Notes under the pieces: model-generated
What the model was told of the DNA's origin: nothing
The model's input: only the letters and a program-made list of their open reading frames with translations
The model's database searches: none
Part shown: positions 16,701-19,700 of the stretch, in pieces
Numbering within the stretch: position 1 is the stretch's first letter
Layout: each line of letters begins with the position of its first letter
Assembly: GCA_964106915.2 (NCBI GenBank)
Contig: OZ066921.1
DNA length: 64,000 bases
Origin: Podarcis gaigeae
Lineage: Eukaryota
Direction: 5' to 3' (one strand)
Position numbers and translations under genes: made by a program

Positions 16701-19700
16701 TTTCAAAAAGTAAAAACCAGGACACCCTGAAAGTTGTTGAGCTCTAAAAAGGCCCAAAAATGCAATTGTTCATTTGACTTGCCTAGGATCCAGGACAAAC
16801 CGCCACCTTACAGCCCTACATAAATGAAAATCTTTCTGGATCAGCAGAAGGGGGCTTATTGCCCCCTCTGTTAATGTTGTGGTGACCAAGGAGGGGGCAA
16901 TTTGCATCTGTTCCTGAGCACAGAGTATTGCCTGTTCCAGCACTGTGTCTGCTTCACTTCCCCACACTTTTGACCCCACTGCCAAAATTAGTGGGGTTTT
17001 GGCTGGGGACTGAAAAAATTGCTTGAAGCTTGAGGGTAGGCAGATCAGGCCTCAGAGCTGGAAGTTGGCCCCCTGTGCCCTAGAGCCATAGCAGCTCCAG
17101 CTGAGCCAGTTTAGGGGCTACCTCAAATGGCTTCATTGGAGCCTTTTTCCTCTCCATGGTTCTGTTCATGGAGATGGAGGAGGTTTCTCATCTTCTTCAA
17201 GCCAACTCTTTAAAGAGGAATTCTGCTCCCCTCTGCCCTAGAGCTCCCTGTTCCATTTTTTTCATGTGGGTTTTCCCACACAGCTTTTTATTGTCAGTTT
17301 GGGCCTTGGGCTTGGGCAACTTGGCGGTTGGAGCCCTGTTCCCGGGGAGGCCTTGGGCAAGCTGTGGCGTGTGCCAGCCTCAGCTCTTAAGGTGGAAATA
17401 TCCCCATGTGTGTTCTGAAGTGCTGCCTCCTATGCCAGCCTTTTCTGCAACAAGCTCCCGTCCATGGCCTTTCCTTTTGCACTTTCAGAGAGAAGCTTTA
17501 AGGGCTAAACTTTGGCTTGGTCCAGGAGGCCTGGACTAAGGGGAAACATAATTTTTCCTTTTCAAATTAGTCCAGGTAAATGTTAGGAACAGTTATTATA
17601 TCATATATGATTCTTCAGGCTGTGAACTCTCATTTATTTATTTATTGCATTCATAACCCACATTTTCACCAAGGAGCTCTAAATGGTGTACATGGTTCTC
17701 CTCAATTAATCCACACAACCACCCTATGAAGTAGGTTAGGCTGACAACCACCCTATGAGGTAGGTTAGGCTGAGAGGCAGGCCACCTAGCCTGGGGATAG
17801 GAAGCCTTGGATCTCTGTCAAGCACAGCAACAGGTGCTTGAGTTCCCAAATGGAGCCTAGTCATCCCACTCCGCCACCAGCTGACAATGCCCTTAGTAGA
17901 TGTAACAATCCCATAATACCTATTTTCCCAACAACCTGCTGCTTCTAATCCCCAGGGCATTTTCTTCCCTCCTCCTCCATTTTTTCTTCCTGTGCCCAGA
18001 GGCATGTCTGATCTGGAACTGGAGATCAAAGGGATGTGAAAGACAGCTGCATCCGCATCATCTCAAAGGGTTGAGGTCGTAACCTGGGCCTTCAAGGCCA
18101 AATTAAACAGCTATTGAACTAAAGGTGTTGGGCATGGCCCAGTAGGACCTGGGCTGTTTTCACAGCTCTGATGGTTCTGTGGTGGAACTTGCAGTTAAGT
18201 GAAGCATGCTTCCTCCCCATTGTTTACCCTGGCTTGACTGTAGAATGCTGCCATGACTTCTTGGAGCAAGGCTGTAGGACACACAACACCTCTAGGAGCA
18301 CATTCAGAAGGGAGACCTTGATTCTAGTTCTCTTCAATGGGCCAGAGTTAGGCTTGATTCCCTGGTGCTGCCCTTGCCTCTTCCAGGGGCAGTGACTCAC
18401 ATGACATGAACATTTGTAAGTAGCACCTTTCTGCTATTGTGATTTGTGGATGGCATCTGATGAAGCCGGTCTTTACCGGCTCATCTCTGAGGACATCCAG
18501 AACTTTGCCACCTTTTTGCTGCACATGAATGCAGCTACCTCTTTGGGAATGTGGTCTTTTTGGCACAGCCACCATCAGGACAGAGTTGAAGCTGGTTAAG
18601 TTGGCACCTTTTGTTGCTGCCCATGACAACCTGGTGCCCTACATATATTTTGGATTACAACTCTCATCAGCTTCAGCCAGGGAAGGCACCAGGTTAGCAA
18701 AGGCGTGTGGTTCTTTGCCAAGCCAGGGGTTTCTAGTTTCCTGTAGGTCAATTCTGCTTCAGAAGCAATTATTTCCCACGTGTTGGGAATTCCCTTTTTG
18801 AGGCTTGTTCTGGTTTGTTTTGCCTTGCAAGAGAGCTGTATTAAGCTGGCAAAGCTCCCACACTGCCAACAGGGCTGAAGAACTGAGGGTTTTTCAGTTG
18901 TTTCTGGACTATGGCTCCCATCCCTGCTAATCATGCTGGCTGGGACTGATGGGAGATCAACAACATCTAGGGAATCTCCACTCCCAGGATAAGGCAATGT
19001 GGCAATAAGGCTTTTATAAACACACTTTGGACAAGGACAAAAAATAAAATCTGAATAATTATCCAGGTGGGCAATAAAATATCACTTAAAACTATTCTAC
19101 CTTTCTTAGGCACATTGCTCAATCCTTCCAAGTCCTCTGTGTGAATCTCATTGTCAATCTCTCCTCCTTTCTTTTGAGGCAGTTCTTTCTCTGCTATCCC
19201 CTCTGGATTTGGAATTGGAGAGCTGGGAAAGGGCTCAAAAAGCCATCATTTCAAAGTATCCCCACTAGCATCTTGGACATCGGTCCACACAGTTGCCAAT
19301 GCCTGCCTTCTATGTCACTCCCTGGTGCTTCTCTTTCTCCTGATCTTCCGGTGTCCCCCCCCCAAATAAATTTTATTGGTTTTCCACAAATTTTTAAACA
19401 CACAACAACAAACAAACAAACAAACAAACAAACAAACAAACAAACATAAATCCTAACCTTATTAAGACTAATCTTATTAACATTGTTAAGCGACTTCCTC
19501 ATGTCCCCTTGGTTGAATTTCAGTGTATATCATATTAATGCTTTTCCAAAACCTATATTCTCATAAAGTTAACTTAATCACTTAACATCTTTCTCCTGAT
19601 CTTCAGGTGTTGTGCTGCTGTCGGATGCATTCCCAGAGCGAGTCCTTCCCTACCTGCTGGCCCAATATGGGAGCGCTCATCCAGGCACACAGGAAGCACA

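What the first reader, a model, noticed from the sequence alone, without database searches (positions are those of the whole stretch)
19332..19610. Insertion at a TANGO6 splice acceptor: duplicated acceptor silenced by a single AG>CG change, branch point apparently supplied by the insert
Seen: TCTTTCTCCTGATCTTC[C]GGTGT (19332-19354) and TCTTTCTCCTGATCTTC[A]GGTGT (19588-19610) flank a 233-bp AT-rich insert. The repeat spans the pyrimidine tract, the acceptor AG and the first 4 exon bases. The only mismatch in 23 bp is the A of the AG in the upstream copy. An intact upstream AG would add 256 nt and shift the frame. The insert ends in CTTAAC (19581-19586), a good branch-point match about 21 nt before the working AG. 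Inference: a retro-insertion with target-site duplication in a conserved gene, rescued by loss of the spare acceptor, with the element now part of the splice signal. The expected poly(A) end reads as a G9 run on the minus strand, which is also odd.
Basis: partly seen in the sequence, partly recalled or inferred. Interest (0 to 1): 0.75.

Follow-up and report, generated by a model that had tools for sequence, protein, structure and literature searches.

The report
LINE insertion duplicated TANGO6 splice acceptor
A 233-base piece of a high-copy repeat, likely the tail of an L1-type jumping gene, sits between two copies of a splice acceptor of the TANGO6 gene (essential in mice); the first copy has lost its AG and the second likely uses a branch point brought by the insert, a rare but known way for an insertion at an exon edge to be tolerated.

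Summary
Observation confirmed. Two 23-nt copies (19332-19354, 19588-19610; one mismatch, C for the A of the AG) flank a 233-nt insert at the acceptor of a 153-nt TANGO6 exon.

The insert is a high-copy repeat (650-750x single-copy depth). Its anatomy is that of an antisense, 5'-truncated L1-type 3' UTR: T-rich microsatellite, AATAAA, tail, and up to 7 nt of junction microhomology, so the TSD proper is 16-23 nt. It is in two samples of organism A (both keep the C) and at the downstream junction of organism C. No empty site was seen in 4 of 4 runs, and no outgroup was available.

The working acceptor's likely branch window lies wholly in the insert (four yUnAy motifs). This is unmapped.

'Rescue' is not shown: neutral decay would hit the AG in 5-13% of cases. 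More likely the insertion was tolerated from birth and the spare AG purged later. G9 is not rare in lizards; some other copies appear G-tailed too. A neat variant of known TSD/splice-site co-option.

The parts
12811..12868 (+). Preceding TANGO6 exon (58 nt, ends ...CAAG, phase 1)
   Evidence: an RNA-labelled contig of organism D joins its end to 19607 (table 7)
19293..19331 (+). Likely original intron 3' region: AG-free, pyrimidine-rich, weak branch candidate GTCAC (A19317, 33 nt before the dead site)
   Evidence: 71% pyrimidine at -41..-21; nearest upstream AG 58 nt away
19332..19354 (+). Upstream copy of the duplicated target (pyrimidine tract, CG in place of AG at 19349-19350, first 4 exon bases); dead acceptor
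   Evidence: C kept in runs X1 and X14; X14 carries a further T>C at 19341
19355..19587 (-). 233-nt insert: 3' end of a high-copy, likely L1-type LINE, antisense to TANGO6, 5'-truncated
   Evidence: 215, 174, 235 and 28 contigs laid in the four runs; depth 646-752x single copy
19355..19363 (-). G9 run where the poly(A) tail is expected; length varies among samples (2 more C in X14, one adjacent A missing in X1)
   Evidence: (table 4)
19372..19377 (-). AATAAA polyadenylation signal of the element
19396..19446 (-). (TTTG)13 microsatellite, the T-rich repeat typical of non-mammalian L1 3' UTRs
   Evidence: PMC5381506 section 13
19560..19586 (+). Cluster of four yUnAy branch-point candidates (A at 19563, 19572, 19577, 19585; 43, 34, 29, 21 nt before the last intron base), all inside the insert
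   Evidence: no differing letter at 5%+ of depth listed for family contigs at 19565-19587 (contig ends are not itemised)
19588..19594 (+). Up to 7 nt shared by element and target (5'-junction microhomology)
   Evidence: table 7: 14, 14, 17 and 3 family contigs in X1, X14, X9, X15 match to 19594 and then go on unlike
19588..19610 (+). Downstream copy of the duplicated target, holding the working acceptor AG (19605-19606)
   Evidence: record 22
19607..19759 (+). TANGO6 coding exon, 153 nt (51 codons), second half of Pfam RTP1_C1
26994..27146 (+). Next TANGO6 exon
   Evidence: loose end of the organism-D contig

Best explanation
The insert is a high-copy repeat flanked by two copies of the TANGO6 acceptor, likely the 5'-truncated 3' UTR of an L1-type LINE that inserted antisense by target-primed reverse transcription, and it was likely tolerated from the start because the downstream copy would splice using branch points already present in the element, the spare upstream AG likely being lost afterwards. 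Steps: (1) A nick 4-5 nt inside the coding exon primed copying of the element's 3' end (inferred from polarity). (2) Copying stopped after 233-240 nt and joined the target through up to 7 nt of pyrimidine microhomology, duplicating 16-23 nt that include the tract, the AG and four exon bases (duplication shown; family match to 19594 shown; mechanism inferred). (3) The downstream copy keeps the 153-nt exon but is cut off from the old branch region, so its branch point would be one of four yUnAy motifs native to the element's antisense strand (positions shown, use inferred, about 0.8). (4) The upstream copy would define a 409-nt exon with premature stops; it likely lost the competition most of the time, and its A>C change removed the remaining leak (change shown; weak selection rather than drift about 0.6-0.7). 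(5) The poly(A) tail likely turned over to a G run by the process that makes G/C runs common in lizards (inferred, about 0.7).
For: Repeat family: depth over 19503-19533 is 646-752x single-copy depth in 3 of 3 genomic runs. L1-like anatomy: 30% GC, T-rich repeat, AATAAA then tail, 233 nt, matching lizard L1 3' UTRs (clade 1: 345+/-118 nt, 33% GC; PMC5381506). Family contigs stop matching at 19594 in 4 of 4 runs; microhomology is a feature of 5'-truncated L1 and the human TSD peak is 14-16 bp (PMC2912911), and 23-7=16. Branch geometry; three yUnAy in the 27-nt window occur at 0.7% of intron positions and in 4.9% of insert-composition shuffles. Four AGs lie between the old branch candidate and the working AG. 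The upstream copy has no yUnAy at -18..-60. The insertion is shared by organisms A and C, and the upstream copy accumulates other changes. Tango6 knockout is early lethal in mice (PMC10943085), so a null stage is unlikely to have persisted (inference).
Against: No empty allele was seen in 4 of 4 runs laid and no outgroup intron was obtained, so the pre-insertion state is inferred. No RNA-labelled holder from a species known to carry the insert was laid; the one spliced contig is from organism D, whose intron state is unknown and whose RNA label is a guess. The yUnAy scan is insensitive: 2 of 2 other TANGO6 acceptors tested also have none at -18..-60, so the upstream copy's lack of one proves little, and its pyrimidine tract is the longer one. 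One yUnAy arises in 69% of insert-composition shuffles. The nick site (GGTGT/TGTG) does not match the human L1 TT/AAAA preference. No ORF2 is present, so the clade is untested. An equilibrium fold puts TTAAC at 19582-86 and the working AG mostly paired (unpaired 0.19 and 0.0), a weak point against.
Confidence: 0.5

Rival explanations
1. Same insertion, but the AG>CG change is plain neutral decay: the upstream acceptor never competed, and the mismatch landed on the AG by chance.
For: The copy differs from the family majority at 8 of 117 positions (3 of 117 nearly private), predicting 0.6-1.6 mismatches in 23 nt; 1 is seen, plus a second in X14. P(AG hit) is 5-13%; 2 of 23 positions is 9%.
Against: The only mismatch shared by the window and both organism-A runs is on an invariant splice base. 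With a prior of 0.1-0.5 for selection the posterior is 0.55-0.92 (the prior is my assumption). Local hypermutation by the G run is not supported: in yeast G11-G12 had no effect (PMC4928981).
Confidence: 0.2
2. Strict rescue: the fresh insertion broke splicing, and only the allele with the A>C change, most plausibly made during integration or gap filling, survived.
For: The upstream copy kept the old branch region and the longer pyrimidine tract (71% vs 52% at -41..-21). Its use gives premature stops in a gene essential in mice. TEs within 20 bp of acceptors are strongly depleted and often harmful in mammals (PMC3088655). The change lies 5-6 nt from the inferred nick.
Against: It needs a specific substitution during integration or during the short life of a null allele; both are rare (inference). 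The change created a CpG, which tends to decay (recalled), yet it persists while two family CpG positions in the insert appear decayed (19501, 19539), hinting weakly that it is younger than the insertion.
Confidence: 0.15
3. The duplicated AG|GT made a zero-length recursive splice site: splicing to the upstream AG rebuilt a donor (AAG|GTGT..) that re-spliced to the downstream AG, removing the 256 nt exactly until the site was lost.
For: The duplication covers AG|GT and the previous exon ends in CAAG; this is the geometry of AGGT proto-splice-site intron gain (PMC3443670).
Against: The rebuilt donor lacks both +4A and +5G, and nearly the same junction (AAG|GTGTTG) exists in the normal mRNA, where the organism-D contig keeps the exon. 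No data bear on the intermediate.
Confidence: 0.08
4. Not target-primed retrotransposition: a repeat fragment was patched into a staggered break, or a 23-nt tandem duplication came first and the fragment later.
For: No A tail; nick site unlike TT/AAAA; 7 nt is a long microhomology.
Against: The fragment ends exactly at a LINE-like 3' terminus (AATAAA plus homopolymer) flush with one repeat copy and is truncated at the other.
Confidence: 0.07

Closest known systems
5'-truncated L1 (LINE-1 clade) insertions; lizard L1 3' UTRs (Boissinot and Sookdeo 2016, PMC5381506; Kojima 2010, PMC2912911)
   Same: AT-rich 3' UTR with T-rich repeat, AATAAA and terminal homopolymer; 5' truncation with microhomology; TSD of 16-23 nt; antisense in a gene.
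   Different: Tail is G9-11, not poly(A); nick site is not TT/AAAA; no ORF2 is present, so L1 versus Tx1 is open.
Intron gain by transposon insertion into AGGT, and Introners that co-opt the TSD as 3' splice site (PMC3443670, PMC11282704)
   Same: The TSD duplicates AG|GT and the downstream copy supplies the acceptor, so the coding sequence is unchanged.
   Different: No new intron is born: the target is an existing acceptor, the insert lengthens an old intron, no new donor is needed, and the spare acceptor is dead. The element is a LINE tail without terminal inverted repeats.
TE-derived branch points in exonized antisense Alu (Mercer et al. 2015, PMC4315302)
   Same: An antisense retroelement carries a branch motif in its own consensus beside a pyrimidine tract.
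   Different: There the TE creates a new, usually alternative exon; here it would replace the branch point of an old coding exon. The branch point here is not mapped.
TE insertions within 20 bp of splice acceptors (Zhang, Romanish and Mager 2011, PMC3088655; Alu sQTL, PMC6326789)
   Same: Insertion inside the acceptor's underrepresentation zone; short and antisense, as survivors tend to be.
   Different: Those cases are mostly harmful or alter splicing; this one is shared by two labelled organisms in a gene essential in mice.

Membership tests
Non-LTR retrotransposon insertion by TPRT | Insert is a dispersed repeat | tested here: met
   174-235 contigs laid per genomic run; depth 646-752x single copy (the tool warns depth is no copy number)
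Non-LTR retrotransposon insertion by TPRT | Flanking target-site duplication | tested here: met
   22 of 23 identical; 16-23 nt after microhomology
Non-LTR retrotransposon insertion by TPRT | Empty orthologous site with one copy of the target | tested here: inconclusive
   No joint across the insert in 4 of 4 runs; A and C carry it; the D contigs do not bridge the site; scans 28, 33, 52, 53 empty
Non-LTR retrotransposon insertion by TPRT | 5' truncation with junction microhomology | tested here: met
   Family contigs match to 19594 and continue unlike in 4 of 4 runs; exact identity of each of the 7 nt is not itemised
L1 clade (L1/Tx1) | 3' UTR with T-rich repeat and AATAAA | tested here: met
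   PMC5381506 section 13
L1 clade (L1/Tx1) | Poly(A) tail | tested here: not met
   G9 in the window, longer in X14; read as a decayed tail by inference only
L1 clade (L1/Tx1) | ORF2 with APE endonuclease and RT upstream in full copies; match to a named consensus | not testable with these tools
   No coding part in the insert; no Dfam/Repbase; no genome held; the supplement of PMC5381506 gave no motif hit
L1 clade (L1/Tx1) | Human-type endonuclease target TT/AAAA | tested here: not met
   Target reads GGTGT/TGTG versus PMC2912911; the lizard preference is not known to me
Introner / TE-derived new intron | A new intron with its own donor between two exon halves | tested here: not met
   The insert lies in the existing intron 12869-19606; the spliced contig joins 12868 to 19607
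Introner / TE-derived new intron | Acceptor co-opted from the TSD | tested here: met
   Working AG 19605-19606 lies in the downstream repeat copy
TE-supplied branch point | Lariat branch nucleotide maps inside the element | not testable with these tools
   Only motif and distance evidence
Recursive splice site (ratchet point) | Intact AG|GT with splicing intermediates | tested here: not met
   Upstream site is CG|GT today; a past role cannot be tested

The most novel reading that the evidence does not exclude
This lizard L1-type subfamily carries, on the antisense strand of its 3' UTR, a cluster of branch-point motifs running into a pyrimidine stretch. Truncation by microhomology on host polypyrimidine tracts would therefore repeatedly build working chimeric acceptors and let insertions nicked inside coding exons survive; the dead spare acceptors would form a countable record of selection on splicing. 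Many of its copies also end in G runs, possibly from birth rather than by later decay.
Probability: 0.12. Interest if true: 0.65.

Novelty: new variant of a known kind. Interest (0 to 1): 0.4.

Why it matters
TE insertions within 20 bp of an acceptor are among the most strongly purged in mammals (PMC3088655). Here an insertion nicked inside a coding exon of a gene essential in mice appears to have been placed in the intron by its own duplication, with the element likely supplying the branch point. It is a ready natural test of acceptor competition (old branch point with a long exon versus new branch point with a short exon): one base in a minigene would tell rescue from tolerance. If the family does this repeatedly, spare-AG loss could be counted genome-wide. 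As a single locus it combines known ingredients and changes no general model.

Tried and rejected
WHOLE GENOME. None is held for this window, so no copy count or family alignment was possible.

EMPTY SITE AND FULL-LENGTH COPIES. A degenerate family motif found 0 matches in metagenome, viral and prokaryote collections. The exon peptide found 0 confirmed relatives among 598 candidate stretches in metagenomes. The insert has no second copy in the window (best self-hits E 0.5).

RUNS. No RNA holder is on record among the 23 runs listed. Only 4 of the 23 were laid; organism B was not. Run X9 shows no cover at 19100-19347 (filtered records are possible), so the C at 19349 is unchecked in organism C.

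RFAM. On 12000-28000 it gave one tRNA-like hit at the edge and nothing at the locus.

FOLDING. 19280-19680 gave no usable discrimination.

BRANCH SCORING. The matrix is a rough recalled one; I rely on the plain yUnAy count. CTGAT inside the repeat (7 nt before the intron end) was rejected as too close. The old branch region serving 19606 at a distance was rejected because four AGs intervene.

OTHER IDEAS REJECTED. Assembly error at 19349. G-run hypermutation: yeast threshold is G13. Bov-B/Sauria SINE: their ends are short tandem repeats (PMC13295347 passages). A unique 'odd' G tail.

CORRECTION. One search used an exon start off by one; corrected.

EARLIER FINDINGS. None by sequence or place or by the first word sets.

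Full report
OBSERVATION. Two 23-mers at 19332-19354 and 19588-19610 differ only at C19349 versus A19605 and flank 233 nt of 29.6% GC. About 0.001 such pairs are expected by chance within 3 kb in the window. The exon behind the second copy is 19607-19759 (153 nt). It joins in frame to exons at 12811-12868 and 26994-27146 and encodes positions 65-108 of Pfam RTP1_C1; other exons give RTP1_C1 1-44 and RTP1_C2 (3 of 4 peptides named). The gene is therefore TANGO6. Use of the upstream site would give a 409-nt exon with a stop 15 codons in, and all three frames of the insert contain stops.

OTHER SAMPLES. Of 23 runs listed, 4 were laid. X1 and X14 (organism A, two samples and studies; X1 may be the window's source) each have a contig spanning 19100-19395 with no difference at 19349 and a contig crossing the downstream junction. 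So the C is real. X14 has a second change in the upstream copy (T>C at 19341) and two more C in the run; X1 lacks one A beside it. X9 (organism C, 3 differences in 440 nt) has a contig running from the exon 27 nt into the insert. That is under the tool's 31-letter bridging rule, but its 31-mers that cross from insert past 19594 into unique sequence must come from reads, so I read it as carrying the insertion. Its upstream flank is not shown. No joint across the insert appears in 4 of 4 runs; contigs drop rare variants, so this does not exclude empty alleles. X15 (organism D, RNA by guess, 5-6 differences in its two 151-nt pieces upstream) has a 1263-nt contig that joins the previous exon to 19607 and 19759 to the next exon. 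This shows use of the downstream-type acceptor in a relative whose intron state is unknown.

WHAT THE INSERT IS. Depth over 19503-19533 is 646-752 times single-copy depth in the 3 genomic runs, so it is a high-copy repeat. On the minus strand it reads as an AT-rich stretch, (TTTG)13, AATAAA, 8 nt and G9. Lizard L1 3' UTRs are short, about 33% GC, hold T-rich repeats and end in AATAAA plus poly(A) (PMC5381506; abstract and sections 7, 13, 15 read). At the other end, 14, 14, 17 and 3 family contigs keep matching to 19594, 7 nt into the downstream repeat, and then diverge. This is the 5'-truncation microhomology described for L1, and it leaves a 16-nt core TSD, close to the 14-16 bp human peak (PMC2912911, passages). 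The inferred first nick lies 4-5 nt inside the coding exon, so this was formally an exonic insertion that its own duplication placed in the intron. Against strict L1 membership: there is no A tail, the target is not TT/AAAA, and no ORF2 can be tested. I call it L1-type, not a named family.

BRANCH POINT. The repeat covers only the last 19 intron bases. Human branch points lie 21-34 nt upstream in 83% of clones (PMC2367711, abstract) and 19-37 nt in 90% (PMC4315302, passages). For the working AG that window lies in the insert. It holds yUnAy motifs at 21, 29, 34 and 43 nt. Three in the 27-nt core occur at 0.7% of intron positions and in 4.9% of insert-composition shuffles; at least one occurs in 69% of shuffles. 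The old candidate (GTCAC, A19317) is separated from the working AG by four other AGs. No differing letter is listed for family contigs at 19565-19587, so the motifs appear native to the element, as CUAAU is in antisense Alu. Limits: 2 of 2 other TANGO6 acceptors tested have no yUnAy at -18..-60, so motif absence means little, and nothing is mapped.

RESCUE OR DECAY. This copy differs from the family majority at 8 of 117 positions, 3 of them nearly private (X1 depths). That predicts 0.6-1.6 neutral mismatches in 23 nt and a 5-13% chance of hitting the AG. The hit therefore favours selection by roughly tenfold but does not prove it; posteriors are 0.55-0.92 for assumed priors of 0.1-0.5. Strict rescue has its own difficulty. 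Tango6 knockout is early lethal in mice (PMC10943085, passages), and a null allele would rarely last long enough to gain one specific substitution (inference, not computed). The simplest history is that the downstream acceptor worked from the start, helped by the short exon (exon definition, recalled) and the imported motifs. The upstream AG then leaked and was purged. The upstream copy's longer pyrimidine tract (71% versus 52%) argues the other way and keeps the rescue rival alive. A recursive route through the duplicated AG|GT is possible, but the rebuilt donor is weak.

THE G RUN. In the window, runs of 9+ are 11 G/C to 4 A/T, against about 2 each in simulations. Of 14 G/C runs of 8+, 5 abut AAA or TTT (background 9%; one of the five is this run). 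In 11 of 12 lizard genomes G/C makes up 47-77% of mononucleotide repeats (Salvator 17%), against 13-27% in 3 crocodilians (PMC11581779, supplement Table S7 part 1). The run varies in length among samples. Turnover from poly(A) is thus plausible and not peculiar to this site. Other contigs also reach 19354, at 1.4-3.6 single-copy depths against about 5 at 19364, suggesting more G-tailed copies. A-tailed copies give shorter matches and are likely under-counted. Whether tails are G from birth is open.

COMPARISON. The ingredients are known: AGGT proto-splice duplication (PMC3443670, passages), TSD co-option by Introners (PMC11282704, passages), TE-borne branch motifs, and depletion of TEs beside acceptors (PMC3088655 and PMC6326789, passages). 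No new intron is made here, so it is not an Introner case. Three searches for this configuration gave 0, 4 and 10 papers, none describing it by title or abstract start; the library lacks most subscription journals and supplements were not searched, so this is weak. The scan's own notes list similar events in a coral and in RAP1GDS1 (unchecked AI notes), which suggests acceptor duplication recurs.

VERDICT. A real, well-formed case: an L1-type tail whose TSD duplicated an acceptor, a dead spare AG and a likely element-supplied branch point. Insertion type about 0.85-0.9; branch point in the insert about 0.8; AG loss by selection about 0.6-0.7; strict rescue about 0.15. New variant of a known kind; interest 0.4.

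Noticed in passing
window:19354-19395 (table 4): Other contigs in all three genomic runs align through the C run (1.4-3.6 single-copy depths at 19354 versus about 5 at 19364), suggesting further family copies that end in G runs.
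   Followed up: partly
whole window: G/C homopolymers of 9+ outnumber A/T 11 to 4; several abut A/T runs (44719-44736 C9A9, 52960-52975 T8G8), a pattern that suggests A/T-to-G/C run turnover.
   Followed up: partly
window:19607-19759: The exon is 153 nt, so skipping it would be in frame and delete 51 residues of RTP1_C1. Exonic differences were seen at 19644 (X1, X14) and 19752 (X9, X15).
   Followed up: partly
window:35686-35775 and 17715-17773: Perfect 44-nt and near-perfect 29-nt tandem duplications.
   Followed up: no
window:17070-17244: A 17-nt direct repeat with one mismatch, 158 nt apart, in the same TANGO6 intron; possibly another TSD or chance.
   Followed up: no
window:49263-49366, 59679-59814, 62896-63489: Self-complementary or inverted dispersed elements, likely MITE-type; not classified.
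   Followed up: no
window:27941-28127 and copies at about 6760-6870, 7760-7930, 33270-33460, 47045-47240: An abundant dispersed repeat with a tRNA-like head (Rfam RF00005, 32.8 bits, cut at the scan edge), likely a tRNA-derived SINE.
   Followed up: no
window:46075-50436, 55600-56010 (minus), 56700-60400: Neighbouring genes read as HAS3, CHTF8 and UTP4 from their translations (names recalled, not from a call).
   Followed up: no
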